Shown here piece after piece: positions 19,694-48,922 of a stretch of 64,000 nucleotides of DNA. The notes under the pieces are model-generated. The model was not told where the DNA came from. It saw nothing but the letters and a program-made list of their open reading frames with translations, and did not search any database. The DNA lies in the NCBI GenBank assembly GCA_027077805.1, contig JALWTS010000041.1:73234-137233 (forward strand). Direction: 5' to 3'. Origin of the DNA: Gammaproteobacteria bacterium (GTDB lineage: Bacteria; Pseudomonadota; Gammaproteobacteria; JABHGC01). Each line of letters starts with the position of its first letter. The first letter of the stretch is position 1. Position numbers and translations under genes: made by a program.

Positions 19694-19710
19694 ACAATGT
19701 TCTACAGAAT

Positions 19711-22524: not shown

Positions 22525-22591
22525 TCAATATCCTCATTAATTAAACAAAAATTTAAAAGTAATAGTGTCATACAGCAATAACTTAAAATAT

Positions 22592-25290: not shown

Positions 25291-25480
25291 GAAAAACCTA
25301 AACTCTTAACAAAATAACTGTTGCATTGCACTTAGTTTAAAATAATAAATAAACATAAACGGTTAAACTAAAAGCAAATTTAATGTTATTTAACTATATT
25401 TTAACCACATTTTTTTAATTTTAGAGTACAATTCAAAACACAAAATAGCAATTTCAATTTATCTATCACTAATAACAAAC

Positions 25481-26035
25481 TCAATCAAACAACTCTGCCT
25501 CTTTAAATAAAGAACCCTGTCTATCTTTTGTTGAAAGTGTAATATCCAATTTTTTATCAACCAACCAATCAATCTTTAAACTCGCATCATTCCAAGCAAT
25601 ACAACGCTCTAATTCAGGGGCATAATAGTTCGTGGTTTTATACAAAAATTCCGCCGTGTCTGATAAAGTTAAAAAACCGTGCGCAAAACCTTCTGGAATC
25701 CAAAGTTGATGATGATTTTCAGATGATAATCCCGCACTTACCCATTGCCCAAAAGTTGGCGACGAACGCCGAATATCCACCGCAACATCTAAAACTTTAC
25801 CTTGTACTACTCTGACTAATTTGCCTTGCGCTTTAGGGTTTAATTGATAATGTAACCCTCTTAATACGCCTTTGACTGATTTAGAATGATTATCTTGGAC
25901 AAACTCACAATTTAATCCTGTCAATGCTTTAAATACTTTCGCATTAAAACTTTCAAAGAAAAAACCACGATGATCACCAAATACTTTGGGTTGCAATAAA
26001 ATCACATCAGGAATTGCTAAAGGGGTTGCTTGCAT
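25481..26035 (-). CDS. rfbC: dTDP-4-dehydrorhamnose 3,5-epimerase
   Basis: 184-aa RmlC cupin (…VFGDHRGFFFESFN…). Confidence 0.9.
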   Translation of the reverse strand: MQATPLAIPDVILLQPKVFGDHRGFFFESFNAKVFKALTGLNCEFVQDNHSKSVKGVLRGLHYQLNPKAQGKLVRVVQGKVLDVAVDIRRSSPTFGQWVSAGLSSENHHQLWIPEGFAHGFLTLSDTAEFLYKTTNYYAPELERCIAWNDASLKIDWLVDKKLDITLSTKDRQGSLFKEAELFD

Positions 26036-26921
26036 TAAAATACTCTTTCTTGCAGTAAAAGTTGTAAATATTGACCGTAACTGTTTTTTATTAAGGGTTG
26101 ACTTAATTGTTCTAATTGTTGATCATCAATCCAATGTTGTCGCCAAGCAATTTCTTCAGGACAAGCCACTTTTAAACCTTGGCGTTTTTCCAAAGTCGCA
26201 ATAAAATGACTGGCTTCTAATAATGAATCATGGGTTCCCGTATCCAACCAAGCATAACCTCTCCCCATAATCTCAACCGATAATTGCTGTTGTGCTAAAT
26301 ACAACGCATTAATATCGGTAATTTCCAACTCACCTCTAGCAGAAGGTTTTAATTGTTTTGCCATTTCTATCACTTGATTATCATAAAAATACAAGCCTGT
26401 TACCGCATAATGCGATTTCGGGTTTGCAGGTTTTTCTTCCAATGACAAGACTTGTCCCGTTTGGTCAAACTCAACGACACCATAACGTTCAGGGTCATGC
26501 ACATGATAAGCAAATACACTCGCACCTGCTTGACGCTGAGCCGCATTCGCTAATAAATGATGAAAATCATGGCCATAAAAAATATTATCCCCTAAAATTA
26601 AGGCACAGCAGTCTTGAGCAATAAATTCATCACCCAGAATAAATGCTTGGGCTAAACCATCAGGACTTGCTTGCACTTGATACTGTAAATTTAACCCCCA
26701 TTGTTGACCATCACCTAATAGTCGCTGAAACGCAGGCATATCATGTGGGGTTGAAATAATCAAAATATCTTGAATCCCTGCTAACATCAATGTGCTTAGT
26801 GGATAATAAATCATAGGTTTATCATAAACAGGCAGTAGTTGTTTGGAAATTGATAAAGTCGCAGGATATAAGCGAGTACCACTGCCTCCCGCAAGAACAA
26901 TCCCTTTACAAATACTCATTA
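26035..26921 (-). CDS. rfbA: Glucose-1-phosphate thymidylyltransferase
   Basis: [42 protein letters not shown]. The start is taken at the internal Met, which overlaps the rfbD stop. Confidence 0.9.
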
Positions 26922-27812
26922 TAACTGTCCTTGTAAAGCCAGTTCTGCCACCAAGCGTTTTACCTGAACTTGCCAATCGGGTAATACCAATCCAAATTGT
27001 TGTTTGATTTTATCGGTATTTAAACGAGAATTTAAGGGTCGTGTTGCGGGGGTTGGATAAGCACTCGTTTTAATAGGAATGATTTGCTCAGGACTAATTT
27101 TTAATTCCGCCCCTGCTTGAATTGCTTCAGTAATGACCAATTTTGCAAACTCATGCCAATTCGTCTCACCTGACGCCACCAAATGATATAATCCACTGGC
27201 ATTATTGCCTTGCTTAAATTGCAATAAACACATCGCCGTAATATCCGCAATTAATTCGGCACTGGTTGGCACGCCAACTTGATCAACCACTACTTTTAAC
27301 TGTTCCCGTTGCTTTGCTAATCGTAACATAGTTCTAGCAAAATTATGACCTAGGCGAGCATAAACCCAACTGGTGCGAAAAATAAAATGTTGACAAGCCA
27401 CGTCAGCTATCAATTGCTCGCCTAGTTGCTTGGTTTGACCATAGACACTTTGGGGAGAGGTCGCATCGCTTTCTAAATAAGGTGAATCTTTAGTGCCATC
27501 AAACACATAATCGGTGGAATAATGCACTAAACAACCATTAATTTGCTTTACTGCTTCGGCAATCACTTTCACCGCTTGGGCATTGACAATATTAGCTAAT
27601 TCAGGCTCTGACTCCGCTTTATCTACGGCGGTATAAGCAGCAGCATTCACTACGATATCAGGTGATAATTTGAGGATACAATCACCTAATTTATCTAACT
27701 CAATAAAATCTACTTCCGTTTGATCAAAAGCGGTAACTGTTCCTAAGGGTAATAATGCCCGTTGCAATTCCCAACCAACTTGCCCTTGTTTGCCTAATAA
27801 TAATATGTTCAT
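26919..27812 (-). CDS. rfbD: dTDP-4-dehydrorhamnose reductase
   Basis: [16 protein letters not shown]… RmlD Rossmann fold. It is translationally coupled to rfbB. Confidence 0.85.
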
Positions 27813-28864
27813 GAATACTGTTGCTCCACCCACTGACGATAAACCCCAGTCGTAACATTATTAACCCAATCGAAATGTGATAAATACCAAGTTACTGTTT
27901 TAGCCATGCCAGATTCAAAGGTTTCTTTAGGTCGCCAAGCTAATTGTTGTTGAATTTTAGAGGCATCAATCGCATAGCGTCGATCATGCCCTGGCCGATC
28001 TTTAACATAAGTAATCTGATCAGCATAAGACTTACCATCGGTTCTTGGTTGCTGTTGATCCAAAATCTGACACAAGGTATTCACTACCTCAATATTCGCT
28101 TTTTCATTACACCCACCAATATTATAAACCTCACCGACTTGACCTTTTTCTAATACGTTTACAATTGCCTGACAATGATCAATCACATATAACCAGTCCC
28201 GAATTTGTTGACCATCCCCATAAATGGGTAAAGGCTGATTACTAATGGCATTATGAATACACAATGGAATCAATTTTTCTGGAAACTGATAAGGGCCATA
28301 ATTATTAGAACAATTCGTGGTTAATACAGGCAAGCCATAGGTATGATAATAAGCTCGAACTAAATGATCCGAACTGGCTTTACTGGCAGAATAAGGACTA
28401 TTAGGTTGATATTGATGAGTTTCTTTAAATGCTGGTGCATTTTTTTCCAATGACCCATACACTTCATCCGTAGAAATATGTAAAAATCGAAAATTTTGTC
28501 GTTGCTCACTAGGCAATTGATTCCAATAATCTCGTACTGATTCTAATAAGCGAAACGTTCCCACAATATTGGTTTGAATAAAATCATCGGGGCCATGAAT
28601 AGAACGATCAACATGGGATTCTGCGGCAAAATTAATCATTGCTCGGGGCTGATATTTTACTAATAATTCGGTTATTAATTTCTCATCAGCAATATCGCCT
28701 TGTTGGAAAATATATTGCGGATGATCCGAAATTGGTTTTAAATTTTCCAAGTTTCCTGCATAGCTTAACTTATCCAAATTTAACACTAATTCTTGCGAAT
28801 GTTGTAACCAATCAGTAATGAAATTGCTGCCAATAAACCCAGCACCACCTGTTACAAATATCAT
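27809..28864 (-). CDS. rfbB: dTDP-glucose 4,6-dehydratase
   Basis: MIFVTGGAGFIGSNF…; 351 aa RmlB. Confidence 0.9.
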   Translation of the reverse strand: MIFVTGGAGFIGSNFITDWLQHSQELVLNLDKLSYAGNLENLKPISDHPQYIFQQGDIADEKLITELLVKYQPRAMINFAAESHVDRSIHGPDDFIQTNIVGTFRLLESVRDYWNQLPSEQRQNFRFLHISTDEVYGSLEKNAPAFKETHQYQPNSPYSASKASSDHLVRAYYHTYGLPVLTTNCSNNYGPYQFPEKLIPLCIHNAISNQPLPIYGDGQQIRDWLYVIDHCQAIVNVLEKGQVGEVYNIGGCNEKANIEVVNTLCQILDQQQPRTDGKSYADQITYVKDRPGHDRRYAIDASKIQQQLAWRPKETFESGMAKTVTWYLSHFDWVNNVTTGVYRQWVEQQYS

Positions 28865-30999: not shown

Positions 31000-31798
31000 C
31001 AAAGTTCCCAGTTTCCGTGGCAGTTTCTTTCTCAGATTCAGGTGTGGTTGATTCAATCTCATATTGTCTTAAGTCAGGAATCTCTAGGTCTTGTTGCTCA
31101 ACGCCTAATTCCTGTAAATGATGTCCCATTGCTTCCATTTGCTTATCCATTGCATGGATATGCTCTAACATACAATTAATCGCCTGAGCCACAGGGTCTG
31201 ACATATCTTTTGTTGTGCCATAAGCATCAAAACCAATTTTTTTAGCCATCTCAATTTGTTGTTGTGTCGGTGCTTTTACTTGTGTAGATTTTTTCACAAT
31301 ATTCCCAGGCACCCCAACCACTGTTACATCACTAGGGACATCTTTCAGCACTACAGCATTAGCGCCTATTCTCGCATTATCGCCAATTAAAATTGGCCCT
31401 AATACTTTCGCACCTGCTCCAACAATCACATTATCACCCAAAGTTGGATGACGCTTGCCTTTTTGCCAGCTTGTACCACCTAAAGTTACCCCATGATATA
31501 AGGTACAATCATCCCCAATTACCGCAGTTTCACCAATCACAACACCCATACCGTGATCAATAAAAAAGCGACGACCAATGACAGCACCAGGATGAATTTC
31601 AATCCCAGTCAACCAACGTGCAAACATAGACAAAAATTTTGCCAACCATCTAATTTTATGCTGCCATAACCAATGATCCATGCGGTGCATTAGAATAGCA
31701 TGAATACCTGGGTAAGTGGTAAGAATTTCCAGCATGTGTCGAGCCGCAGGGTCTCGATCAAAAACACAAGTAATATCTTCTCGTAATCGGGTAAACAT
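30989..31798 (-). CDS. cysE: Serine O-acetyltransferase (short N-terminus, long acidic C-terminal tail)
   Basis: Hexapeptide core [28 protein letters not shown]. There is an approximately 95-aa Glu/Gln/Thr-rich extension after the LbH domain. Confidence 0.85.
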
Positions 31799-31988
31799 AA
31801 ATTTCCTTAACTAAACTACAGTTACAACATAGTTTAACTAAATTTAATAATTAAACTGGAAAATGGGAAAAGGCATTTTGTTTTGATTGACCGAAACGCT
31901 ATCATATCGAATCAAAAATCACTAGGAAACTTAATTATTAAAAGACTATTTTTTACTTTAGCTGACCAACAACAACCAAGGAGTCATT

Positions 31989-32804
31989 ATGAAACTTTAT
32001 TATTGCTTTTTGCTAGTTATCCTAACGATAAATTCAAGTTATGCGAATACCACACCAGATATTAAACAAACATTACAAACGGTATTTCAAGGATTATCAG
32101 AACAACAACCCGCCGTATTATGGCAAGCGTTACCACTAAGCTATCAACAACAACTGACCCGACTGATTCAACAGTCAGCAAGCCAAACCAATCCATTAGT
32201 CCATAGAAAGTTTATTCAACTATTGACCAAAACCAAAAAGGTACTACAACAAAAACAAGCATTTTTTCTCAATAATCCCGATATTAAATCACATCCTAAA
32301 GTTGATAAAGCCCTATGGCAGGATATTATTCAAACGTTGAATATTTTATTAGCGAGTCGTTTAACGGATATCAATTATCTAAAAAATATCAACCTAGAAA
32401 CCCTATTACAATCAACAGGTCAAGAATTAAGTCAAAAACTTCATTTATTCCCAACAGAACTTAGCAAAACTGAATTTGAAGTGCTAGAAAGTGATACTCA
32501 ATCAGCTCAAGTAAAAATTTCATACCCAAATCAAAATTCCGAAGTGCTAGCATTTGCATTAATAGAAAATAAATGGTTGCCTTTAAAGTTTATTGAAAAA
32601 TGGAATACTGCCACTGATGAAATGCAACAATATTTACAATTGGGTCCTAATCCACAACAGGATATGATAGCGATGTTATTGCTAAATACGGTAGAAATTA
32701 TGTTAGTACAACTTGAGAAAATTAACAGTCAAACAGAATTTGATCAAGTATTTGATCAATCTTTGAAAAATATTAATGCTTTAGGCAATCAATTGACAGA
32801 ATAA
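31989..32804 (+). CDS. Hypothetical secreted protein (signal peptide MKLYYCFLLVILTINSSYA)
   Basis: ORF with an N-terminal Sec signal. It is Q/L-rich and fits no recognisable family. Confidence 0.4.
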   Translation: MKLYYCFLLVILTINSSYANTTPDIKQTLQTVFQGLSEQQPAVLWQALPLSYQQQLTRLIQQSASQTNPLVHRKFIQLLTKTKKVLQQKQAFFLNNPDIKSHPKVDKALWQDIIQTLNILLASRLTDINYLKNINLETLLQSTGQELSQKLHLFPTELSKTEFEVLESDTQSAQVKISYPNQNSEVLAFALIENKWLPLKFIEKWNTATDEMQQYLQLGPNPQQDMIAMLLLNTVEIMLVQLEKINSQTEFDQVFDQSLKNINALGNQLTE

Positions 32805-32814
32805 AACAAAAAAA

Positions 32815-32852
32815 CAAAGCCTGATACCAATCAGGCTTTGTTGCAGTTTTTT
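32815..32852. terminator. Bidirectional intrinsic terminator
   Basis: CAAAGCCTGA-taccaa-TCAGGCTTTG (10-bp stem) followed by TTGCAGTTTTTT. It lies between convergent genes. Confidence 0.6.
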
Positions 32853-32871
32853 ACAAACTATGTACGCTAAT

Positions 32872-33144
32872 TTATTTGCTTTCTGCTGGTGCGACAGGTG
32901 CAACAGGCGCGACAGGTGCACCATAGTAAGGATAACCGCCATAGTAAGGTTGGTGATAACCATAGCCACGACCATATACGTTAGTACGAGATGAGAAGTT
33001 CATATCGAAGTCATTCGCACCATAACCATCACCAAATCCACTCCAAGGACCCCATCCACTCCAAGGACCACCCCACCAAGCTTGGGCAGAAACTGAAGTT
33101 GCTAATAAAGCACTAACGGCGATTGCTTTTACGATATTTTTCAT
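32872..33144 (-). CDS. Small secreted Gly/Tyr/Trp/Pro-rich low-complexity protein, copy 1 (candidate sulfur-globule-protein-like or periplasmic structural protein)
   Basis: MKNIVKAIAVSALLATSVSAQA|WWGGPWSGWGPWSGFGDGYGANDFDMNFSSRTNVYGRGYGYHQPYYGGYPYYGAPVAPVAPVAPAESK. An RBS AAGGAAAT lies upstream. The start is at the internal Met of the ORF. Confidence 0.5.
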   Translation of the reverse strand: MKNIVKAIAVSALLATSVSAQAWWGGPWSGWGPWSGFGDGYGANDFDMNFSSRTNVYGRGYGYHQPYYGGYPYYGAPVAPVAPVAPAESK

Positions 33145-33243
33145 GATAATTTCCTTTTTGTTCAATAATAAAATAATAATAAATTTAATAAAATTGCTAT
33201 TGAATGAGAACCTAACCTATAGCTTCAGCTAGGTTCTATAAAA

Positions 33244-33756
33244 TTAAATTTTTGGGCCAAATTTAGGAAGTTCAGCACGTTTTTCCATGATTTCTTTACG
33301 GCGTTGTTCCATTTCTTGCATCGCTTTTTCACGATATTGTTGCATTTCTCTCATCGCTTTAGCTTGGCGTTCTTGCATGGCTTTTACTTGTTGTTCTGCA
33401 AAAGCTTGTGCTACTTTCCTGTCTTCTTCCATTTTCTTCACAATGTCATCATTAGCAAATGGAGCAGGAACAGCTTCAGGACCTTTCACGATAGGCTGAG
33501 GAAAATTTTTCATCATTTGTTCGTGATGCTTTCGTGCCATTTCTTCGGCTTGTCTCATTGAAGCTTCATGACGTTTCATAATCTCTTCATTGGCTTGACG
33601 TTGTGCCTTAATTGCTTGTTCAAATGCTTGTTGTTGTTGTTCAAAATCAACGACTGGTACGGCAGGTGTTACTTGAGGTTCTCCCCACCATGCGTTAGCT
33701 GACAATGAAATACCCATGACTGTTGCGATTGCTAATACTTTAACTAAACGTTTCAT
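33244..33756 (-). CDS. Secreted, highly charged Met/Gln/Glu/Lys-rich predicted coiled-coil protein (170 aa), flanked by the two Gly/Tyr-rich paralogs
   Basis: Signal peptide is MKRLVKVLAIATVMGISLSANA|WWGEP…. The mature part is EEQ/AMQE-repeat helical (…AMQERQAKAMREMQQYREKAMQEMEQRRKEIMEKRAEL…). It shares the post-cleavage WWG motif with its neighbours. Confidence 0.5.
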   Translation of the reverse strand: MKRLVKVLAIATVMGISLSANAWWGEPQVTPAVPVVDFEQQQQAFEQAIKAQRQANEEIMKRHEASMRQAEEMARKHHEQMMKNFPQPIVKGPEAVPAPFANDDIVKKMEEDRKVAQAFAEQQVKAMQERQAKAMREMQQYREKAMQEMEQRRKEIMEKRAELPKFGPKI

Positions 33757-33870
33757 ATCTAAAACCTCTCATCTAATATGTTTGTTACATCAATCACAGG
33801 GAGCACATCCATGTGCAGAGCATCCATTCAAAGCCACATCCCTGTGTATTTCTATCCCTATTCTTTACGA

Positions 33871-34167
33871 TTACTTGCTTTCAGCTGGCACAACAGGAGC
33901 GACAGGTGCAACAGGAGCGACAGGCGCACCGTAGTAAGGATAACCACCATAGTATGGATAACCATAGTAAGGTTGGTGATAACCATAGCCACGACCATAC
34001 ACATTAGAGTGAGAAGACATATTGAAGTTGAAGTCATTGGCACCATAACCATCACCGAATCCACTCCAAGGACCCCATCCACTCCAAGGACCACCCCACC
34101 ATGCTTGAGCTGAAACTGAAGTTGCTAATAAAGCACTAACGGCAATTGCTTTTACGATATTTTTCAT
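33871..34167 (-). CDS. Small secreted Gly/Tyr/Trp/Pro-rich low-complexity protein, copy 2 (paralog of 32872..33144)
   Basis: Same signal peptide and WWGGPWSGWGPWSGFGDGYG core as copy 1, about 90% nucleotide identity, with one extra YGYPYY unit and one extra PVA unit. Own RBS. The start is at the internal Met. Confidence 0.5.
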   Translation of the reverse strand: MKNIVKAIAVSALLATSVSAQAWWGGPWSGWGPWSGFGDGYGANDFNFNMSSHSNVYGRGYGYHQPYYGYPYYGGYPYYGAPVAPVAPVAPVVPAESK

Positions 34168-34495
34168 GATATATTTCCTTTTTTTGTTACATTTAAGTTT
34201 TAAAGATTTTTTTGTTACTGTGTGCCTGAACACGTGTAAAGAATATTAGAATTTACTTATCAAATCAAATATAAATATTCTATAATGCTTATAATATTAT
34301 TTTATGACAATAATTATATTATTATTTTCTAATATATTTAAGTTAAATATCTAATATCATCAATCAGTTAAAAATTCTTATGGTTTTCACATTGGGGTTT
34401 AAATCAAGTGAAAAAAGTGATAAAAAAAGATTTTTGCTCTTGAAAATTAGGGGCAAGGCTTGCCTTTTTTGAGGGGCAAAAAATGAATAAAATGC

Positions 34496-36169
34496 CTATG
34501 GATTTAAAGCAGGCAATCCAGTGCGTGCTTTAGGCTGAGTTACACATAATTGATGCACCGCAAGATGTTGGAACTGTTGCTGAAAACGGGTTTTCCACGG
34601 CTTAATATCAATGGCTTGCTGATTATATACAGCGGATTGTAATTCTTGAAACAATTCATTCACCTCAATAGGATTCACTTGAGGATAAATATTACATAAA
34701 ACTCTGGCAATATTTTCTAAAGGACTATTATCGGGCATATTCAAACAAGACCCCGCAAATTTAGTCATTAGACTTGCTACGTCCTCCGCTGTTGCTTCAA
34801 ATTCTAAACGTCGCATAAAACGATAAATACGCAAAGAAGTCGGCAAATACTTATCTAAACGCTGTAATAGCCAAAACAACAAACCATAACGTCGTTTGGT
34901 TTCAACCAAGGAACGCTGTGAACGTTGCAAAGACTGAAAAAATACCGATAATTTTCCAGTACTACGACTAATCATCTGGAATAAAACTTCTAAATGGCGG
35001 TAGCAAAACAATAACATTTTGTCCATATATTTAGTGATAATACTGACCCCAGGACGTCCTGCCCCCATCCAAGCACCAAAGAAAAAAATTGCAAACCCGA
35101 TAATCGCAAACCCTAAATACCCAACGGATTGATAAAAAGGGACAGTATATTGCTGTTCTTCAAGCCTATCTAATTTTGCTTCACTAGAGCCAATGCCAAT
35201 TTTTTTGGCAGGGAGTTCCGACCATGTTTCTTTATGATATTGCACATCCCACCACATAACTTGAATTGAAGGTAATTCTAAGATTCCAGTGCTTTGAGGC
35301 ACAACAGTATAAGTTTCAATGCGTTTACCCACAATAGTTTTGCCATCAGTGCTTAGATTATTTTCAGTACTTGATGATTCTAAATACCATTTAAAATCTT
35401 TATTTTGGACTAAAGACGCAATACTAGGAAGATCCTCACCACGACTGCCTCTTGCTTCTAAAGTAATAGTGTAATTAATTGGCTCACCTTCTCTACGTCG
35501 ATTGGCACTATCCATATATCCTGAAATCTTTAAATCGTAAAGAGGCAGCCAAAAATAATTAAAATTTGCTCTGGGTCTTACTCGTAAATGAGTTGCTTTA
35601 GTTTTAATGGATGTAGGAATGGGAGTAAAGCTTTGAGCTTGCGGATTCTGGGCTTGGGAATATTGGGGATATTGATTGTAATTAGGATAGGAATTAGGAT
35701 AAGAATATTGGGGTGGTTGCGTATAGTTTCGATAGGGATATGGCAATTGACGATTATAGTTTTGATAGGGATATGGTGATTGACGATTATAGCTTGGATA
35801 ACTAGAACGATTGTATTGAGAAGACGATTTGAGTGTAATCTCAATCTCAGGAATAGTTAAATCCCCAGCGGCCAATGGAATTAAGGAATATTGATACTCG
35901 GCAACCGCATATTGTTGTTCAAAATACGTTTTAGGTTCACCACCTTCGTTTACATTATCAACGACGGCATTTTCAACCACGGGCATAGGAACATTAGTAA
36001 TTTCAACTGATTTGGGATCATATACAATTTTCATTGTATAAATCACCGCTTGTTTCATATAAGGGTTGGGTTCTGAGATACTCGTTTCAACTCTGGCTGT
36101 ATCCGCAAACACTAAACCATCGATATTAACGAATACCAATAAAAAATAAATTATCGATCGTATGCGCAT
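34496..36169 (-). CDS. BatD-like protein (aerotolerance / oxygen tolerance operon), with a Pro/Tyr/Asn/Gln-rich low-complexity insert
   Basis: N-terminal signal, a C-terminal TM segment, and the last position in a MoxR-DUF58-VWA-VWA-TPR operon. Internal PYPYQNYNRQ-type repeats are present. Confidence 0.55.
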   Translation of the reverse strand: MRIRSIIYFLLVFVNIDGLVFADTARVETSISEPNPYMKQAVIYTMKIVYDPKSVEITNVPMPVVENAVVDNVNEGGEPKTYFEQQYAVAEYQYSLIPLAAGDLTIPEIEITLKSSSQYNRSSYPSYNRQSPYPYQNYNRQLPYPYRNYTQPPQYSYPNSYPNYNQYPQYSQAQNPQAQSFTPIPTSIKTKATHLRVRPRANFNYFWLPLYDLKISGYMDSANRRREGEPINYTITLEARGSRGEDLPSIASLVQNKDFKWYLESSSTENNLSTDGKTIVGKRIETYTVVPQSTGILELPSIQVMWWDVQYHKETWSELPAKKIGIGSSEAKLDRLEEQQYTVPFYQSVGYLGFAIIGFAIFFFGAWMGAGRPGVSIITKYMDKMLLFCYRHLEVLFQMISRSTGKLSVFFQSLQRSQRSLVETKRRYGLLFWLLQRLDKYLPTSLRIYRFMRRLEFEATAEDVASLMTKFAGSCLNMPDNSPLENIARVLCNIYPQVNPIEVNELFQELQSAVYNQQAIDIKPWKTRFQQQFQHLAVHQLCVTQPKARTGLPALNP

Positions 36170-36186
36170 ATTAACCACCTTAAATA

Positions 36187-37488
36187 TTACCAAGGACGAG
36201 ACTCGTATAACAACCGTTGTCCTTGTCCTAATTGTCGTTTTTCTTCATTCAAAAATTGCTGTTGAATTAATTGACTGGGTTCCCCTTCCACTTGCTGTAA
36301 CCATTGTTCAATAATTCTAGGAGGAATATCGGGTTTCCCGTCTAAACGTCCCACTGGAATTTTTCCTTGTTGCAACTGTTGTTCACCAATGGTTTCAAGT
36401 TCTTCTAAATTTTCAATTTCTTGTTGTTCATAACTCGCTGATTCGCCCTTGTCCTGATTTTCTTTATTATCACCTGAGGCTTTGGTATCAAATTGCTGTT
36501 GCCCTTCACTTTTATCTTGCTCTTGATCGCCTTTATTGCCTTTTTGCACTTGATCTTGCTTATCGCCTTTATCTTGTTCGGGCTGTTCTTCGCCTTGTTG
36601 CTCTTGATCTTGTTGTTGCTGTTCCGCTTGTTCTGATTCTGAATCTCGTTGAGCCTTATCTTGTTCTTTAGAATCTGAATCCTGATTTTCCTGATCTGCT
36701 AGTTGTTTTGAATCAGAACCTTGTTGCTCTTGATCTAGTGGTTGTTTTGAGTCAGAACCTTGTTGTTCTTGATCTTGCGCCTTAGACTCAGACCCTTGGT
36801 TTTCTTGATCCTGTTGTTCTTCTGATTCAGAGCCTTGCCGTTCTCGATCTTGCACCTTAGACTCAGACCCTTGGTTTTCTTGATCCTGTTGTTCTTCTGA
36901 TTCAGAGCCTTGTTGCTGTTCTTCAGAAGAATCACCACTAGATTGTTGCCGTTGTTTTTGTTGTTCTTGTGCTTGTTTCTCTTTTTCTTGATTTTCTTGT
37001 TGTTCTTGTGCTTGTTGCTGTTTCTCTTGTTGTTCTTTTTCTTGTTGTTCCTGTTTCTCTTTTTCTTGTTTTTGCTTTTCTTCAGGCTGTTCTGGTTCTA
37101 AAGTGTATAAGTCCAATTGTTTTTGTGCTAAAGCTAAATTAAATTTAGCATCTTCATTATCAGGCTCTCTCGCCAAAGCCCGTTTATAACTCTCAATTGC
37201 TTGATAAAATTTTGCTTGACGAAACTGGGCATTACCTAAATTGTACAAAGCATCACCAAGCACCTCAGGACGAGTAACGCGTTGAAATGCTTGTTCAGCT
37301 AGAACATATAATCCCGCCCGATAATACGCCACCCCTTTACGATAATCATCTGTAAACTTTTCAGCGGCAATACGATAATTACCATCCGCAAAGGCAGTTA
37401 AAGCCTCTTTATCAATATTATTATTCGCAATAGCAATGCTGTAACTTATACTCAATACACTGATTATGACTATTTTGAAATATCTCAT
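36187..37488 (-). CDS. BatC-like TPR-repeat protein with an approximately 200-aa hyper-acidic Glu/Gln/Asp/Ser tandem-repeat region
   Basis: N-terminal TPR motifs (…AYYRAGLYVLAEQAFQRV…ALYNLGNAQFRQAKFYQAIESYKRALAREPDNEDAKFNLALA…) followed by QGSESEEQQDQENQGSESK repeats. Confidence 0.6.
   Translation of the reverse strand: MRYFKIVIISVLSISYSIAIANNNIDKEALTAFADGNYRIAAEKFTDDYRKGVAYYRAGLYVLAEQAFQRVTRPEVLGDALYNLGNAQFRQAKFYQAIESYKRALAREPDNEDAKFNLALAQKQLDLYTLEPEQPEEKQKQEKEKQEQQEKEQQEKQQQAQEQQENQEKEKQAQEQQKQRQQSSGDSSEEQQQGSESEEQQDQENQGSESKVQDRERQGSESEEQQDQENQGSESKAQDQEQQGSDSKQPLDQEQQGSDSKQLADQENQDSDSKEQDKAQRDSESEQAEQQQQDQEQQGEEQPEQDKGDKQDQVQKGNKGDQEQDKSEGQQQFDTKASGDNKENQDKGESASYEQQEIENLEELETIGEQQLQQGKIPVGRLDGKPDIPPRIIEQWLQQVEGEPSQLIQQQFLNEEKRQLGQGQRLLYESRPW
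36690..36930. repeat. Coding tandem repeat array (75-bp unit, about 3 copies, the two 3' copies identical over their first 57 nt) inside the BatC-like gene
   Basis: Units start at 36781 and 36856 (cttagactcagacccttggttttcttgatcctgttgttcttctgattcagagccttg…). A diverged copy lies upstream (36700-36780). Confidence 0.7.
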
Positions 37489-37489
37489 A

Positions 37490-38512
37490 TTATTTCCGCC
37501 ATCTCACCCGCTGTACTTGTCGAAAACGATATAACAACAACAACATCATTAGACCTACTAAAATATAAAAACGTTCATGCCAAACCCGAATTGGATTTTT
37601 CTTTACCATACTAGGCGGTTGATTTTGTTTAATATGCTCTAAAATTGTTTCAACATCATCATTACGATAACTAGCGGTAACATAGATACCGCCACCCGCT
37701 TGTGCTAATAGTTCTAATCCTGTTTTATCTAACTTAGAGATCACTCGTCGTCCTTGCTGATCCACTAACCACCCCCCTTGAGGACTGGCTACAGGCACGC
37801 CCTGAGTTTCACCGACGCCAATCACATATAAATTAATACCATATTGTCTGAATTGTCGCACTTGTTCTGATAAATTAGGTTCTTGAAAATCACCATCTGA
37901 CACCAATACAATCGCTTTGGCATTGCCCGAAGGCTGGCTTAAAAACAAACGCTGTGCTTTATCCAAGGCATTAGACAAACGTGAGCCTTGTAAACGCACT
38001 AAATCAGTGGATAATGCAGGTAAAATTCGTAATAACGACCAACGATCTTCAGTAATCGGTGATAAAACATTGGCAACTGTGGCAAACGCAATCAAACCCA
38101 CTTTTAAATTCTGGGCTTGCTCCACAAAATCTTTCACTTCTTGTTTCGCTCTTGCCAAACGATTAGGACGTACATCTTGGGCTGACATGGAACGTGACAT
38201 ATCAAATAAAATCACCACGCCAGTCGTGGGTTCAAAAATATCAATATCAGTATAATCCCAACGAGGCCCTGCCATTGCAATCACAGCCATGACCCATAAC
38301 ATTGTCCATAATAAAAAGGCTTTACGCCGTTTCACCCCTTCTTCATTATTATGGATAATTAAATAAGGCAACAAATGTTTATCAGCATAGTGCTGTAATC
38401 TATCATAATAATCTTCTCTTAATTGTGCTCTTGGTAACCACCATAAGACTAATGGAAAAATTAAGCCCCATAACCATATGGGTTGTTCAAAATGAAAGCC
38501 GACTGTTTCCAT
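37490..38512 (-). CDS. VWA domain protein (BatB-like)
   Basis: N-terminal TM helices followed by a von Willebrand A domain (…VVILFDMSRSMSAQDV…AKAIVLVSDGDF…). Confidence 0.65.
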   Translation of the reverse strand: METVGFHFEQPIWLWGLIFPLVLWWLPRAQLREDYYDRLQHYADKHLLPYLIIHNNEEGVKRRKAFLLWTMLWVMAVIAMAGPRWDYTDIDIFEPTTGVVILFDMSRSMSAQDVRPNRLARAKQEVKDFVEQAQNLKVGLIAFATVANVLSPITEDRWSLLRILPALSTDLVRLQGSRLSNALDKAQRLFLSQPSGNAKAIVLVSDGDFQEPNLSEQVRQFRQYGINLYVIGVGETQGVPVASPQGGWLVDQQGRRVISKLDKTGLELLAQAGGGIYVTASYRNDDVETILEHIKQNQPPSMVKKNPIRVWHERFYILVGLMMLLLLYRFRQVQRVRWRK

Positions 38513-38519
38513 AGTTATC

Positions 38520-39535
38520 TCACTGCTGATTCCGACCTAAACTAATACCAACCATCATCATTAATATTAATAAAGCAAAACCTAAGGGCCAGCGATATAA
38601 GGGTTGTGGAATTAGAATGGTTTTGGATTTAGCGTCGGTTTTTTCTAAGGTATTAATATCTTGGTAAATGGCTTCTAAGGCCTGAGTATCAGTCGCTCGA
38701 AAATATTGACCACCTGTTTGTTGGGCAATCCTCATTAATAGGTTTTCGTCAATACTCATTTCTTCCATTTCGATTTTACCCTCTTTCCAAATCGGCACTT
38801 CTTTTTGTTGACTACCCACACCAATAGTATAAATCCGAATATTAAAGTGATCTGCCATCATAGCAGCCTGAACAGGCAATAAACTTCCTTCAGTATTTTC
38901 ACCATCGGTAATTAAAATCAATACCCGAGATTCGGCAGGTCGTTCTTTTAATTTTTTTACGGCTAAACCAATGGCATCACCAATGGCTGTTGCATCACCA
39001 ACCATACCAGGTGAAAGATGCGTTAACATATCTCGAACCACTGCCCCATCCAAAGTTAAGGGTGCTTGTACATAAGCTTGATCACCAAATAAAATCAAAC
39101 CAATCCTATCGCCCTGCCGTTGTTGAATAAACTCATCAACAACTTCTTTTACCACATCCATTCGAGTTACTTTGCGTCCATGTAAACTAAAATCCAAAGC
39201 TAACATAGAACGAGACGTATCCACTGCCAACATTAAATCATAACCTCTACTAGTTACTTGGGTATGTTCTTCTAGCCACTGGGGACGCATTACCGTTGCC
39301 ACTAGGGCTATCCATAACAATGCCCATAAAATGGCTTGCAACCAATCATGCGACTGTAAACCTTTATCAGAGGAATGAAATGCTTGTTCTAAACGCTCAA
39401 TCGCAGGATGATATAATACGCTTTCCGCCATTTCTTCCTCTTGCTCTAGGGCTTCTCGATCTGGCCAAAAAAATCTCACCAACCAAGGCAAGGGTAATAA
39501 CAAGGCCAACCAAGGCCAATAAAAACTAAACATGC
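38520..39535 (-). CDS. VWA domain protein (BatA-like)
   Basis: MFSFYWPWLALLLPLPW…LMLAVDTSRSMLA…RVLILITDGENTEG. The start is taken at the internal Met. Confidence 0.65.
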
Positions 39536-40050
39536 TGTTTTTTTCTAAACCATCGTAGTAAAGATAATATATTCGGTTGCTTGTAAGGATCAATTTCTAC
39601 CCAAGCCAGACTTGCTTTAAATAAGGCTCGCCAAGCTTTACGATCAATTTCTAAGTGTTCATTCGGGGGTGCATACGGTAAGTCTAATAATAATTTTCGA
39701 TATTTTGACCATTGAAAGCCTTTGGGATCGTTTTGTTGTAACCATAATAGCCACGCCTCGCCTTCTAAACCAGCACAAGCACTACGACCACAACGTGCCA
39801 TTGCAATTCGTCGTAATAATATAGAAAATTTACCCATTAATACTTGGCTAGGATGACGATTAAACTGGCGTCGTAAGCGTAATAATTGGCTTTTTGCATC
39901 CGTTTTCCATGTTTGTCCTGTTGGAATAGATAACCACAACCAAATAATAAATAACAATACCAATAATAAAGCAAACGCAATCAAGACATCAGTAAGCGAC
40001 CACCAATACACTGACACATCTAAACCACGAATATCACGTAATTGATCCAT
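39526..40050 (-). CDS. DUF4381-like small membrane protein of Bat/MoxR operons
   Basis: 174 aa with a single TM (LIAFALLLVLLFIIWLWL). It has the conserved position between the DUF58 and BatA genes. Confidence 0.4.
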   Translation of the reverse strand: MDQLRDIRGLDVSVYWWSLTDVLIAFALLLVLLFIIWLWLSIPTGQTWKTDAKSQLLRLRRQFNRHPSQVLMGKFSILLRRIAMARCGRSACAGLEGEAWLLWLQQNDPKGFQWSKYRKLLLDLPYAPPNEHLEIDRKAWRALFKASLAWVEIDPYKQPNILSLLRWFRKKQHV

Positions 40051-40064
40051 CCGCCTAATCCTTG

Positions 40065-40982
40065 TTAACGCCCAACTCGATAGGCTCGTTTACGCAAGCC
40101 TTGCAGTAATACTTGATGCACATTTTGCTCAGTAGAAACAGGAATAACATCCGCCCCTAAACGCTTAGCAATCATTTCCAAGCGTTGACGCTGTTGTTGC
40201 CATTGTTGTCGATATTGCGCACAACCAGCACGATTATCGGTATCTAACTCCAATTCTATGCCAGTCCCTGTCGCAAACACGACTCGTCCCATCGCAGGAA
40301 TCTCATAATCAGCCTTATCATCCACAGGAAATAATACCACCTCATGTTTTTGCTGTAATCGACCTAAGATTTGCTCAAAATTCACTAAATCTTGACTAAA
40401 ATCACTAATAATCAAAATCAATGACCCAATCGCTGTGCCATGAATTAATTTTTCCATCGCGTCTGCAAGATAGTGTGAGGAATTTTTTTGTTTAGGCGCC
40501 GCTTCCGTCATTGAACGTAACATTTGCCACAAAGAACGCCTTGAACTACTTGGAGGGAAATAGCGTAACCCATTGGGATCACCGAATAGTAAAGCTCCGA
40601 CTCTATCTTGACTTGCCGAAGCCGCCCAACCTAACAAAGCTGAAATCCTTGCCGCTTGGACTAATTTAAAGGTATTCCTAGTACCAAACTGCATATGACT
40701 ACCAATATCTACACATAATAATACACTACGTTGTCGTTCTTCTTTAAAAACTTTTAAATGTGGCACATTAGTTCTTGCGGTAACTCGCCAATCCATATTA
40801 CGAATTTCATCACCTTCTTGATACTCTCTAACCTCATCAAAGTTCATCCCTTGCCCACGAAATACTGATTGGTATAAACCACATAATAATGAATTAACAG
40901 GATGACGTGAGGCTAAACCCAAGGTATGTGCTTGATGACGTAACTCAAGTAAATCATCTAAATCAGGCAATAAAACTTTCAT
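40065..40982 (-). CDS. DUF58 domain protein (MoxR-associated, VWA-like)
   Basis: 305 aa (…YQEGDEIRNMDWRVTART…) immediately downstream of the MoxR ATPase. Confidence 0.7.
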   Translation of the reverse strand: MKVLLPDLDDLLELRHQAHTLGLASRHPVNSLLCGLYQSVFRGQGMNFDEVREYQEGDEIRNMDWRVTARTNVPHLKVFKEERQRSVLLCVDIGSHMQFGTRNTFKLVQAARISALLGWAASASQDRVGALLFGDPNGLRYFPPSSSRRSLWQMLRSMTEAAPKQKNSSHYLADAMEKLIHGTAIGSLILIISDFSQDLVNFEQILGRLQQKHEVVLFPVDDKADYEIPAMGRVVFATGTGIELELDTDNRAGCAQYRQQWQQQRQRLEMIAKRLGADVIPVSTEQNVHQVLLQGLRKRAYRVGR

Positions 40983-41008
40983 AAAACGATCAAATAGGAC
41001 TGAAATAA

Positions 41009-41965
41009 CTAAGGGACGGCAACCACTTCTAGTAAGCGTTTAATAAAATCATCTGGGGTAACACCATCTGCTTCTGCCTCAAAGGTTAACAATACCCGAT
41101 GGCGTAAAATATCCAAAGCCACACTTTGAATATGCCCGGGCGTAACATAAGTATCACCACTTAACCATGCTTTGGCTTTAGCACAACGGGCTAACGCAAT
41201 ACTCGCCCGAGGGGAAGCACCAAATCGACACCAACGTTTTAAATCAGTATCATAATTCCCAGGTTGTCTTGACCCCATAATCAATGACACAATATATTGA
41301 TTTAATTTTGGATCAATATAAATTTTAGCTACCGCCTCTCTGACTAAAAATAAATCTTCTTGGCTAAGGACTTTTTTGGTCTTTTTAACTTTATGTTGTT
41401 GGACAGAACTATCCAATGCCATAATGGCTAATTCTTCCTCGGCATTAGGATAATCTACCCAAACATGCATTAAAAATCTATCCAACTGGGCTTCAGGTAA
41501 TTGATAAGTCCCTTCTTGTTCAATCGGATTTTGCGTGGCTAATACCATAAATAATGGTGGCAAGGCATAAGTTTTTTGCCCTACCGTTACTTGATGTTCT
41601 GCCATAGCTTCTAGCAAAGCAGACTGTACTTTTGCAGGCGCACGATTAACCTCATCCGCCAATAAAATATTATGGAAAATCGGCCCTGCTCGAAATTCAA
41701 ATTCACCTTGTGCTTGACGATACACATCCGTACCGATTAAATCTGAAGGTAATAAATCAGGGGTAAATTGAATACGATGAAAATCACCTTCAACTGCTTC
41801 TGATAAAGCTTTAACTGCGGTAGTTTTTGCTAACCCAGGCATCCCTTCAATTAATAAATGACCATCACACAATAAGGCAATTAACATATTTTCCACTAAA
41901 TTAGTTTGCCCAATTACTCGTGAGGCAATATGTTCTCGCACGACATTTAATTGGTTTAAATCCAT
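41009..41965 (-). CDS. MoxR-family AAA+ ATPase
   Basis: Walker A is GMPGLAKTTAV and Walker B is LLADEVNRAPAKVQSALLEAMAE. 318 aa. Confidence 0.85.
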   Translation of the reverse strand: MDLNQLNVVREHIASRVIGQTNLVENMLIALLCDGHLLIEGMPGLAKTTAVKALSEAVEGDFHRIQFTPDLLPSDLIGTDVYRQAQGEFEFRAGPIFHNILLADEVNRAPAKVQSALLEAMAEHQVTVGQKTYALPPLFMVLATQNPIEQEGTYQLPEAQLDRFLMHVWVDYPNAEEELAIMALDSSVQQHKVKKTKKVLSQEDLFLVREAVAKIYIDPKLNQYIVSLIMGSRQPGNYDTDLKRWCRFGASPRASIALARCAKAKAWLSGDTYVTPGHIQSVALDILRHRVLLTFEAEADGVTPDDFIKRLLEVVAVP

Positions 41966-43047: not shown

Positions 43048-43095
43048 AAATAAATCTCACTTGATGATTATAAATGTAGATATGTTACTACATAA

Positions 43096-48920: not shown

Positions 48921-48922
48921 AC

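What the first reader, a model, noticed from the sequence alone, without database searches (positions are those of the whole stretch)
32872..34167. Tandem trio of small secreted low-complexity proteins: two near-identical Gly/Tyr/Trp/Pro-rich paralogs flanking a charged coiled-coil protein (candidate sulfur-globule-envelope-like proteins)
Seen directly: two genes (32872..33144 and 33871..34167) encode approximately 70-aa mature proteins. Each has the same Sec signal, a WWGGPWSGWGPWSGFGDGYG core, YGRGYGYHQPYYGGYPYYG repeats and a (PVA)3-4 tail. They are about 90% identical at the DNA level, and copy 2 carries an extra YGYPYY/PVA unit, which points to recent duplication or gene conversion and unit slippage. 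The 170-aa gene between them encodes a secreted, extremely charged Met/Gln/Glu/Lys helical-repeat protein whose mature N-terminus also begins WWGEP. Each gene has its own RBS, and hairpin terminators lie nearby. Established knowledge: the periplasmic sulfur globule envelope proteins SgpA and SgpB of purple sulfur bacteria are a paralogous pair of about 10-kDa Sec-exported Gly/Tyr-rich repetitive structural proteins. Beggiatoaceae also store sulfur in protein-bounded periplasmic globules. Inference: this trio could be the globule-envelope set, or another periplasmic/extracellular matrix, of an AT-rich sulfur-oxidising gammaproteobacterium. If the host is not a sulfur oxidiser, it is still an unusual, probably abundant, self-assembling low-complexity secreted protein system.
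Basis: partly seen in the sequence, partly recalled or inferred. Interest (0 to 1): 0.72.

Follow-up and report, generated by a model that had tools for sequence, protein, structure and literature searches.

The report
Sulfur-globule protein genes with helical partner
Two of the three small secreted proteins belong to the known family that coats bacterial sulfur storage globules, and the charged helical protein between them is a previously unannotated partner module that other bacteria encode next to, or fused onto, the same coat proteins.

Summary
Three minus-strand genes (33871-34167, 33244-33756, 32872-33144) encode Sec-type precursors, each cleaved just before WWG.

The two flanking proteins belong to Pfam PF17228, "Sulphur globule protein". 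Copy 2 scores 41.1 bits against a cut-off of 26.7. Both align along their length with the Beggiatoa leptomitoformis protein for which that paper reports genetic and proteomic evidence of a globule-envelope role.

They are old paralogs under strong purifying selection (dN 0.034, dS 0.43). They are not a recent duplication or gene conversion.

The middle protein matches no known family and has one homolog among 1.84 billion representative proteins. That homolog also lies directly downstream of an SGP gene, in a GC-rich organism. In seven to eight further metagenome loci, a short SGP gene is followed 82-107 nt later by a "long SGP". This is an SGP domain plus a Q/E/K/M helical tail that is homologous to the middle protein (z 6-10 against shuffles; hhalign 97%).

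So the trio is a short-SGP plus helical-partner cassette with an extra SGP copy. In architecture the partner resembles SgpD of Allochromatium. Sequence homology to SgpD could not be tested.

The host is an unplaced AT-rich gammaproteobacterium. No sulfur-oxidation genes lie within about 10 kb of the window.

The parts
33871..34167 (-). sgp copy 2: a 98-aa precursor with a 22-aa Sec signal peptide and a 76-aa, 8.4-kDa Gly/Tyr/Trp/Pro-rich mature protein. It is the first gene of the cassette.
   Evidence: ORF. Pfam PF17228 SGP at 41.1 bits (cut-off 26.7), E 3.3e-10. 48 homologs, 41 of them carrying PF17228. Motif-level alignment with the Beggiatoa SGPs. AlphaFold2 with a 24-sequence alignment predicts no stable fold (pLDDT 52, pTM 0.16).
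33244..33756 (-). Helical partner gene: a 170-aa precursor with a 22-aa signal peptide. The mature protein is 148 aa and 17.5 kDa: a WWGEP stub, a Pro/Val linker, helix 1, a Pro-rich linker and helix 2, ending ..LPKFGPKI.
   Evidence: ORF. Two helices at pLDDT about 90. No Pfam or PDB match for the mature part. The only homolog among 1.84e9 representatives is P0049. The core is homologous to P0049 (z 13.7) and to the tails of long SGP proteins (z 6.3-9.8; tail HMM 23.5 bits against a null maximum of 5.5; hhalign 97.3%).
32872..33144 (-). sgp copy 1: a 90-aa precursor with a 68-aa, 7.4-kDa mature protein. It is a paralog of copy 2 lacking one PYYGY unit and one PVV unit.
   Evidence: ORF. Pfam SGP at 23.2 bits, below the cut-off, E 1.2e-4. 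94% protein identity to copy 2. dN 0.034, dS 0.43.
32813..32842 (.). Bidirectional intrinsic terminator that closes the cassette. It is shared with the convergent 271-aa gene at 31989..32804.
   Evidence: 13-bp stem, 4-nt loop and T-runs on both strands. RNA fold -22 kcal/mol, z = -3.8, 0 of 200 shuffles as stable.
33208..33236 (-). 11-bp hairpin starting 7 nt after the stop codon of the helical-partner gene, with no adjacent U-run. It may be a partial terminator or an mRNA-stabilising element (inferred).
   Evidence: RNA fold of the intergenic region gives z = -2.0, with 4 of 200 shuffles as stable. Coordinates.
34173..34183 (-). Shine-Dalgarno region AAAAAGGAAAT of copy 2. The same 11-mer lies at 33149-33159 for copy 1, and GAGAGG lies at 33765-33770 for the middle gene.
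   Evidence: Read directly from the sequence.
34282..34360 (-). AT-rich leader with three overlapping sigma-70-like promoter candidates upstream of copy 2. No candidate was found upstream of the other two genes.
   Evidence: The number of sites (4) is not above the shuffle expectation (6.1 +/- 2.6), so this is only a lead.
34452..34464 (-). Terminator-like hairpin downstream of the batD homolog. It would separate the Bat/MoxR operon from the sgp cassette.

Best explanation
The trio is a structural-protein cassette for the proteinaceous envelope of periplasmic sulfur globules.

Shown: the two flanking genes encode Sec-exported, intrinsically unstructured Gly/Tyr/Trp/Pro-rich proteins of the SgpA/SgpB/CV1 family (PF17228). 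They are paralogs maintained by strong purifying selection.

Shown: the middle gene encodes a Sec-exported two-helix protein. Its signal peptide and WWG start are SGP-like. Its body is homologous to the C-terminal helical extension of 'long SGP' proteins found in metagenomes. The gene order short SGP, then an 82-114 nt gap, then the helical or long partner recurs in several GC-divergent lineages.

Inferred: after export and cleavage at AxA|WW, the disordered SGPs self-assemble into the thin coat around zero-valent sulfur. The helical protein co-assembles with them as a second envelope component. It is covalently attached to an SGP domain in the long forms and is a separate polypeptide here. 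In this role it would resemble SgpD, the most abundant globule protein of Allochromatium vinosum, which is likewise Sec-exported with Trp at +1 and built as helix, Pro-rich segment, helix.

Inferred: the three genes may be read from one promoter region upstream of copy 2. The internal hairpin and the final strong terminator could set the stoichiometry.
For: SGP membership:
- Pfam SGP above the gathering score for copy 2.
- 48 homologs, 41 with PF17228, the named ones being 'sulfur globule protein CV1' from sulfur-oxidising lineages.
- Ordered motif alignment with B. leptomitoformis ALG67575.1. The paper reports that transposon disruption of this protein's gene is associated with loss of globules and of lithotrophic growth, and that thiosulfate induces the gene 10-fold (PMC7356093).

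Selection: dN/dS = 0.08 between the copies.

Partner:
- The only homolog, P0049, lies 99 nt downstream of a PF17228 gene (46.7 bits) on the same strand, in a contig of 61% GC.
- L014, L015, L016, L017, L019, L020 and L023 each show a short SGP followed 82-107 nt later by a 231-320-aa protein. Its N-terminus scores 37.6-39.6 bits on Pfam SGP in the three above-threshold cases tested (L014, L020, L023); L017 scores 22.6, below the cut-off.
- The tail of that protein is homologous to the middle protein over its full length, from EQQQQAFEQA(I/V).AQR to the C-terminal P.F.P.K(D)I. Smith-Waterman z is 6.3-9.8. The tail HMM gives 23.5 bits against a shuffle maximum of 5.5. hhalign gives 97.3%, E 1.9e-11.
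- Residues 1-28 of the middle protein match SGP N-termini at 48-56% identity.

Structure: two helices at pLDDT about 90 separated by a Pro-rich linker. This matches the published description of SgpD, which also reports Trp as the first mature residue and localisation to globules (PMC10386293).

Transcription signals.
Against: - There is no direct evidence that this host oxidises sulfur or forms globules. No sox, dsr, sqr or fcc gene lies in the 64-kb window or within about 10 kb on either side.
- The host is unplaced, with the best named GcvPB relatives about 70% identical.
- The function of the helical module has not been tested in any organism.
- Sequence similarity to SgpD could not be examined, and the exhaustive search with the middle protein returned no Chromatiaceae protein.
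- Most other SGP genes examined are monocistronic with no helical partner, so the partner is not a universal part of the system.
- Amphipathic periodicity is significant in the window protein but not across the family.
- Promoter-like sites are not above chance.
Confidence: 0.65

Rival explanations
1. The middle protein is a periplasmic holdase or chaperone of the Spy/CpxP/ZraP or Skp type. It would keep the aggregation-prone Gly/Tyr-rich SGPs soluble until they reach the globule, and would not itself be part of the envelope.
For: Faint matches to helical periplasmic chaperone families: Metal_resist PF13801 at 16.5 bits, E 0.0096; LTXXQ at E 0.32 and OmpH/Skp at E 3.6; prefoldin beta at E 5.1 in PDB. 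The protein is all-helical, highly charged and periplasmic, and its gene lies next to genes for disordered client-like proteins.
Against: All of these matches are far below the curated thresholds. The best one disappears once the signal peptide is removed. In the long SGP proteins the same module is covalently fused to an SGP domain at 1:1 stoichiometry, which fits a co-assembling structural part better than a recycling chaperone. No LTXXQ motif is present (read from the sequence).
Confidence: 0.1
2. The trio builds a different periplasmic or extracellular matrix (sheath, adhesive or another inclusion coat) in a bacterium that does not store sulfur. PF17228-type sequences would then be a general keratin-like low-complexity scaffold.
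For: No sulfur-oxidation gene lies in or near the window. The host is unplaced. The neighbours are a Bat/MoxR operon and envelope polysaccharide genes. Low-complexity families can attract compositional matches.
Against: The match to the SGP profile is full-length, ordered and above the curated cut-off. The shared motifs extend to Beggiatoa proteins for which a paper reports genetic and proteomic evidence. Every named homolog comes from a sulfur-oxidising lineage. The nearest named GcvPB homologs are almost all from sulfur oxidisers; one is a cyanobacterial record that is probably contamination. [quoted passage not shown]
Confidence: 0.15
3. The middle gene is a decaying remnant of a long SGP gene that lost its Gly/Tyr domain and no longer has a function.
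For: Relative to the long SGPs it lacks the roughly 50-aa G/Y core and keeps only WWGEP. It is almost an orphan, with one homolog in 1.84e9 representatives.
Against: The 170-codon ORF is intact, with its own Shine-Dalgarno sequence and signal peptide. It is homologous from end to end to P0049 in a 61%-GC genome, where the G/Y domain is also reduced (z 13.7), so the short form has persisted in two very different lineages. The helices are confidently predicted.
Confidence: 0.05

Closest known systems
SgpA/SgpB (CV1/CV2) of Allochromatium vinosum and Thiocapsa roseopersicina; the Beggiatoa leptomitoformis sulfur globule protein ALG67575.1 (Pfam PF17228, SGP)
   Same: For copies 1 and 2: a Sec signal peptide cleaved before WWG; a small mature size; repetitive Gly/Tyr-rich sequence with regularly spaced Pro; the shared ordered motifs GFGDG..DFNMS, GRGYGY, PYYGY repeats, VAPVAP tail and C-terminal Lys; and a paralogous pair, as with SgpA and SgpB (PMC10386293, PMC7356093).
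   Different: The mature proteins are shorter (7.4 and 8.4 kDa, against about 10.5 kDa in Chromatiaceae and 15 kDa in Beggiatoa) and richer in Trp. The genes are clustered around a third gene, whereas the A. vinosum sgp genes are described as separate transcription units and most other SGP genes examined here are monocistronic. Localisation and induction are untested.
SgpD (Alvin_2515, UniProt D3RP35) of Allochromatium vinosum
   Same: For the middle protein: a Sec signal peptide with Trp as the first mature residue; similar size (200-aa against 170-aa precursor); a long N-terminal helix (mature residues 13-58 in SgpD, 16-62 here); a Pro-rich spacer and a second helix; and a predicted coiled-coil character. 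SgpD is experimentally localised to globules and is the most abundant globule protein.
   Different: No sequence homology has been shown. The SgpD sequence could not be retrieved, and the exhaustive search with the middle protein found no Chromatiaceae protein. The SgpD C-terminus...PSSQTR (translated from the primer), differs from ..FGPKI here and ..RKDI in the long forms. SgpD has a much longer Pro-spaced central region and a short second helix, its gene is not next to other sgp genes, and BLAST finds it almost only in Chromatiaceae.
'Long SGP' proteins from metagenomes (L014-L020 and L023; unannotated, no family name)
   Same: The helical body of the middle protein is homologous to their C-terminal 140-240 residues. 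Gene order and spacing downstream of a short SGP gene are the same.
   Different: The long forms keep a complete SGP domain that passes the Pfam cut-off between the signal peptide and the tail, and they have extra helical repeats. The window protein keeps only WWGEP. None of these proteins has been studied.
Surface-coating amphipathic helical proteins of other storage inclusions: phasins on PHA granules, apolipoproteins and perilipins on lipid droplets (analogy from general knowledge, not tested)
   Same: Abundant helical proteins that coat a hydrophobic storage body. Both helices of the window protein show hydrophobic periodicity of 3.67 residues, and Met lines up on one face of helix 2.
   Different: No homology. 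The periodicity is not significant in the other family members. This is a working picture only.

Membership tests
Pfam PF17228 SGP (SgpA/SgpB/CV1-type sulfur globule proteins) | Profile HMM score at or above the curated gathering threshold (26.7 bits) | tested here: met
   Copy 2 scores 41.1 bits, E 3.3e-10, covering profile positions 1-93 of 93. Copy 1 alone scores 23.2 bits, below the cut-off, but it is 94% identical to copy 2 and differs mainly by two deleted repeat units.
Pfam PF17228 SGP (SgpA/SgpB/CV1-type sulfur globule proteins) | Cleavable Sec-type signal peptide that directs the protein to the periplasm | tested here: met
   Read from the sequence: a basic n-region (MKNIVK), a hydrophobic core, and A-Q-A before WWGG. 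The A-x-A|WWG junction is invariant or nearly so across the 12 and 24 aligned family members. No SignalP run was possible.
Pfam PF17228 SGP (SgpA/SgpB/CV1-type sulfur globule proteins) | Small, repetitive Gly/Tyr-rich mature protein with regularly spaced prolines | tested here: met
   Mature proteins of 68 and 76 aa; 20-21% G, 13-16% Y, 12-13% P, 7% W. No stable fold is predicted.
Pfam PF17228 SGP (SgpA/SgpB/CV1-type sulfur globule proteins) | The host oxidises reduced sulfur and deposits sulfur globules | tested here: inconclusive
   No sulfur-oxidation genes lie in the window or within about 10 kb on either side. The nearest named GcvPB relatives (68-71%) are mostly from sulfur-oxidising Gammaproteobacteria.
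Pfam PF17228 SGP (SgpA/SgpB/CV1-type sulfur globule proteins) | Physical association with the globule envelope; induction by sulfide or thiosulfate | not testable with these tools
   This needs proteomics of purified globules, localisation and expression data.
SgpD (Alvin_2515) family | Sec signal peptide with Trp as the first mature residue | tested here: met
   The middle protein reads ...SLSANA|WWGEP. SgpD reads ...TTTAFA|W, translated from the primer and stated in PMC10386293.
SgpD (Alvin_2515) family | Architecture of long helix, proline-rich segment, second helix | tested here: met
   The AlphaFold2 model has helices at 38-84 and 103-162 with a Pro-rich linker between them. The published SgpD model has helices at mature residues 13-58 and 126-142. 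The proportions differ.
SgpD (Alvin_2515) family | Detectable sequence homology to Alvin_2515 | tested here: inconclusive
   The SgpD sequence could not be obtained: the terminator-based scan hit only a Bradyrhizobium MAG, and afdb50 was unavailable. Indirectly, the exhaustive phmmer search with the middle protein returned only P0049 and no Chromatiaceae protein at E <= 1e-3, and the C-termini differ. It is therefore not filed as a member.
CpxP/Spy/ZraP periplasmic chaperones (Pfam Metal_resist PF13801, LTXXQ PF07813) | Profile score above the gathering threshold; LTXXQ motifs | tested here: not met
   16.5 bits against a cut-off of 29.2, and only with the signal peptide included. The mature protein gives LTXXQ at E 0.32. 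No LTXXQ motif is present in the sequence.
'Long-SGP tail' module (unnamed; defined here from L014-L023 and P0049) | Homology to the Q/E/K/M helical region, from EQQQ.AFEQA..AQR to the C-terminal P.F.P.K(D)I, beyond shared composition | tested here: met
   Smith-Waterman z of 6.3-9.8 against 300 shuffles for six tails. The tail HMM scores 23.5 bits against a null mean of -9.9 and maximum of 5.5. hhalign gives 97.3%, E 1.9e-11. tblastn gives 32% identity over 179 aa.
'Long-SGP tail' module (unnamed; defined here from L014-L023 and P0049) | Encoded directly downstream of a short SGP gene on the same strand | tested here: met
   In the window, copy 2 is followed by the middle gene after a 114-nt gap. 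The gap is 99 nt in L011 and 82-107 nt in L014, L015, L016, L017, L019, L020 and L023.

The most novel reading that the evidence does not exclude
The helical module defines a widespread, so far unannotated second component of sulfur-globule envelopes outside the Chromatiaceae. It would be the functional, and possibly very distant evolutionary, counterpart of SgpD. It exists in three states: fused to an SGP domain ('long SGP'), with a reduced SGP stub (P0049), or as a free polypeptide (this window). It would coat or organise the sulfur surface together with the disordered Gly/Tyr proteins, much as phasins or perilipins coat other storage bodies.
Probability: 0.35. Interest if true: 0.6.

Novelty: new variant of a known kind. 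Interest (0 to 1): 0.5.

Why it matters
Sulfur globules are a classic bacterial storage inclusion, but how their protein coat is built is still poorly understood. Experimental work rests mainly on the Sgp proteins of a few purple sulfur bacteria and one protein in Beggiatoa. SgpD, the most abundant coat protein in Allochromatium, has looked like a Chromatiaceae speciality.

This locus, with the related loci found here, shows that SgpA/B-type proteins in other Gammaproteobacteria are repeatedly coupled to a charged two-helix module, either by adjacency or by fusion. That gives a concrete candidate for a second envelope component in non-phototrophic sulfur bacteria. It also gives a defined sequence family for which an HMM could be built, and a natural fused, reduced and free series for testing how disordered and helical coat proteins cooperate.

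The two flanking genes, taken alone, are ordinary new members of a known family.

Tried and rejected
1. I tried to retrieve A. vinosum sgpD by scanning genome contigs for the terminator quoted in PMC10386293. Only the SgpD signal peptide and last six residues could be recovered, from primer sequences. The 2014 proteomics paper is not held.
2. The Foldseek afdb50 library, which might have shown D3RP35, was unavailable. PDB Foldseek gave nothing significant; the best hit was vimentin at E 2.1. The PDB sequence search gave only prefoldin at E 5.1.
3. The word-index homology search with the middle protein found nothing. So did a metagenome scan with the middle-plus-P0049 alignment and a tblastn search of a long SGP against plasmids.
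4. I tested whether the short helical tails of the SGP fusion proteins P0002, P0022 and P0032 are homologous to the middle protein. The similarity does not go beyond composition (z 1.3-2.5). Only P0046 reaches significance against the long-tail HMM (z 5.7). These three count only as examples of the same design, not as homologs.
5. The Spy/CpxP-like chaperone reading rests on sub-threshold matches that vanish once the signal peptide is removed.
6. An 11/3 amphipathic-helix 'coat' signature is significant in the window protein but not in the other family members. It is not claimed as a family property.
7. Host identification failed. Cluster look-ups returned no names, and no paper mentions the BioSample. 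GcvPB gives only about 70% identity to various sulfur-oxidising Gammaproteobacteria.
8. Synteny of the neighbours (BatD, the 271-aa secreted protein, CysE, RpoH) with other SGP loci: none found.
9. Rfam found no known RNA in 31500-35000.
Full report
**Observation.** The three genes are present as described, all on the minus strand. Copy 2 is at 33871..34167 (98 aa), the middle gene at 33244..33756 (170 aa) and copy 1 at 32872..33144 (90 aa). The two copies have identical 22-residue signal peptides and the same mature layout: WWGGPWSGWGPWSGFGDGYG, then DF(N/D)xN, GRGYGYHQPYYG, YPYYG units, a (PVA)n tail and AESK. They are 90.0% identical in DNA over 90 aligned codons. Copy 2 carries two extra units, PYYGY and PVV. 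The mature proteins are 7.4 and 8.4 kDa, and more than half of their residues are G, Y, W or P. The middle protein has a comparable signal peptide ending ANA|WWGEP. Its mature part (148 aa, 17.5 kDa) is rich in E, Q, A, K, M and R, with 26 basic and 25 acidic residues. The A-x-A|WWG junction occurs nowhere else in the 64-kb window.

**Relationship of the two copies.** Similarity starts at the ribosome-binding site and ends at the stop codon, and the flanks are unrelated. Of the 90 aligned codons, 67 are identical, 18 differ synonymously and 5 non-synonymously, the last all within residues 47-54. Nei-Gojobori estimates are dN 0.034, dS 0.43 and dN/dS 0.08. This is an old duplicate held by strong purifying selection.

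**What the flanking genes are.** Copy 2 matches Pfam PF17228 ("Sulphur globule protein") over the whole profile at 41.1 bits, above the gathering score of 26.7. Copy 1 scores 23.2 bits, just below. A search of 5.8 billion clustered proteins gave 48 hits. 41 of them already carry PF17228, and the three with names are "sulfur globule protein CV1" from a tubeworm endosymbiont, a Chromatiales bacterium and Sedimenticola.

The supplement of PMC7356093 gives the sequences of the Beggiatoa leptomitoformis, B. alba and Thioflexithrix proteins. The paper reports that transposon disruption of the B. leptomitoformis gene is associated with loss of sulfur globules and of lithotrophic growth, and that thiosulfate induces the gene 10-fold. 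The window proteins align with these along their length and share the ordered motifs and an invariant C-terminal Lys. AlphaFold2 with a 24-sequence alignment predicts no stable fold (pLDDT 52), as expected for a low-complexity structural protein. The similarity is therefore more than compositional, and the two copies are new members of the SgpA/SgpB/CV1 family.

**What the middle gene is.** The mature protein matches no Pfam, NCBIfam or PDB entry. The weak Metal_resist match (E about 0.01) depends on the signal peptide. The word-index search found nothing. An exhaustive phmmer search of 1.84 billion representatives found one protein, P0049 (E 1.9e-6). With the signal peptide and N-terminal stub removed, the two cores still align from end to end, with z = 13.7 against composition-preserving shuffles. 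AlphaFold2 predicts two long helices, precursor residues 38-84 and 103-162, at pLDDT about 90, joined by a Pro-rich linker.

P0049 comes from a contig of 61% GC. The gene 99 nt upstream of it on the same strand encodes a 115-aa PF17228 protein (46.7 bits) that ends ...AAAESK.

**The long SGP proteins.** A metagenome scan with an SGP alignment returned 16 loci. In L014, L015, L016, L017, L019, L020 and L023, and probably L021, a short SGP gene (105-123 aa) is followed 82-107 nt later on the same strand by a longer gene. L018 carries the long gene too, but the contig ends before any upstream gene can be seen. The long product is 231-320 aa: a signal peptide, an SGP domain and a long Q/E/K/M/A helical region ending ...PVFPPRKDI. 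The SGP domain scores 37.6-39.6 bits in L014, L020 and L023, above the cut-off, and 22.6 bits in L017, below it.

The middle protein is homologous to that helical region over its full length, from EQQQQAFEQAIKAQR (EQQQQAFEQAVAAQR in the long forms) to ..LPKFGPKI. Smith-Waterman z is 6.3-9.8 for six tails. An HMM of the tails scores the middle protein at 23.5 bits, against a shuffle mean of -9.9 and maximum of 5.5. hhalign gives 97.3% probability. Its first 28 residues match SGP N-termini at 48-56% identity.

The middle protein is thus the free-standing form of a module that elsewhere is fused to an SGP domain. P0049, which keeps WYWGAPYAYYLYPPYGGY, is an intermediate. Four further SGP hits (P0002, P0022, P0032, P0046) carry shorter helical tails of similar composition, but only P0046 shows similarity beyond composition.

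**Locus organisation.** A terminator-like hairpin follows the upstream batD homolog. An AT-rich leader with promoter-like hexamers precedes copy 2, although their number is not above chance. No promoter-like site precedes the other two genes. An 11-bp hairpin follows the middle gene, and a strong bidirectional terminator follows copy 1. Each gene has its own Shine-Dalgarno sequence. Whether there is one transcript with internal attenuation or three separate transcripts cannot be decided from the sequence. Rfam finds no known RNA here. The neighbours are not conserved at other SGP loci.

**Host.** Window proteins are singletons at 90% identity and carry no names. The source is a 144.9-kb NCBI contig and two ENA metagenome scaffolds. 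GcvPB is 68-71% identical to its best named relatives: Thiogranum longum, Ca. Thiodiazotropha, Allochromatium humboldtianum and a "Chromatiales bacterium". There is also a cyanobacterial record that is probably contamination. No Beggiatoa appears in the top 120. The window and about 10 kb on each side hold type IV pilus genes, the glycine cleavage system, a low-GC glycosyltransferase island, rml genes, rpoH, cysE, a Bat/MoxR operon, molybdopterin genes and an integrase next to tRNA-Arg. There are no sox, dsr, sqr or fcc genes. The host is an unplaced AT-rich gammaproteobacterium, and its sulfur metabolism is inferred only from the SGP genes.

**Most likely function.** Shown: membership of the SGP family, homology of the middle protein to the long-SGP tail, and the conserved gene pairing. 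Inferred: all three proteins are exported by Sec and cleaved before WW. The disordered SGPs form the thin coat around periplasmic zero-valent sulfur, and the helical protein co-assembles as a second coat component.

In architecture this partner resembles SgpD of A. vinosum. SgpD is Sec-exported with Trp at +1, is built as helix, Pro-rich region, helix, is the most abundant globule protein and has been localised to globules by an mCherry fusion (PMC10386293). Homology to SgpD could not be tested, and the indirect evidence points against detectable similarity. I therefore describe the middle protein as working like SgpD, not as a member of its family.

A Spy/CpxP-like chaperone role, a non-sulfur matrix and a decaying gene are less likely, for the reasons given under the rival explanations. 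The helices of the window protein are amphipathic with a period of 3.67 residues. This is not significant in the other family members, so a phasin- or perilipin-like surface-coating mechanism stays a working picture.

**Novelty.** The flanking genes are new members of a known family. The helical module has no family annotation, and nothing about it turned up in the literature I could search. Its recurrent coupling to SGP domains makes the locus a new variant of the known sulfur-globule protein system.

Noticed in passing
window 35654-35803 (-), inside the batD homolog at 34496-36193: The BatD-like protein directly upstream of the trio carries a Tyr/Pro/Asn/Gln-rich low-complexity insert (SYPSYNRQSPYPYQNYNRQLPYPYRNYTQPPQYSYPNSYPNYNQYPQYSQ). 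I did not examine whether this is usual for BatD or relates to the neighbouring Tyr/Pro-rich SGPs.
   Followed up: no
window 34496-41965 (-): A complete Bat/MoxR-type operon: MoxR AAA+ ATPase, DUF58, DUF4381, two VWA proteins (BatA- and BatB-like), a TPR protein (BatC-like) and BatD. It ends about 330 nt upstream of sgp copy 2. This adjacency is not conserved at other SGP loci.
   Followed up: partly
window 31989-32804 (+): A convergent 271-aa protein with an N-terminal signal-like segment and no family match. It shares the bidirectional terminator with sgp copy 1 and is a singleton at 90% identity.
   Followed up: partly
window about 14000-26000: A low-GC stretch (0.29-0.36 against about 0.39 elsewhere) encoding glycosyltransferases (GT2, GT4, GT-D-like) and an AT3-SGNH acyltransferase, next to dTDP-rhamnose-type genes at about 25481-28864. 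It looks like a surface-polysaccharide island, possibly acquired horizontally.
   Followed up: partly
window 46003-51733: tRNA-Arg(CCG) at 51660-51733 lies near a phage-type integrase (49015-50208), an HSP20 gene and a 760-aa protein with no Pfam match (46003-48285). This may be a small integrated element.
   Followed up: no
L005 4680-6345 (metagenome contig, GC 0.40; holds P0001, the top-scoring relative of the window SGPs): Two SGP genes lie about 1 kb apart. The first (126 aa, exactly at the Pfam cut-off) has an internal duplication of a GxGSFGFNM.AKSDVRG unit and is Asn/Gly-rich rather than Tyr/Trp-rich. ThiS-MoaE lies nearby, as in the window, which hints at distant synteny.
   Followed up: partly
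L014, L020, L023 (long SGP proteins), residues about 36-121: A sub-threshold match to Pfam DUF5320 (21-22.5 bits, cut-off 27) spans the junction between the Gly/Tyr domain and the start of the helical tail. Its meaning is unknown.
   Followed up: no
window 61957-64000 and about 2 kb beyond (L030 8198-11618): A cluster made of a 596-aa thiamine-diphosphate enzyme, a 271-aa protein with no family match and a short (269-aa) citrate-synthase-like protein. It might be a citryl-CoA-lyase-type or sulfoacetaldehyde-type module. I did not analyse it.
   Followed up: no
window 42374-43100 (L001 1021-1694): A PhdYeFM antitoxin and PIN toxin pair lies between the molybdopterin genes and the MoxR operon.
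   Followed up: no
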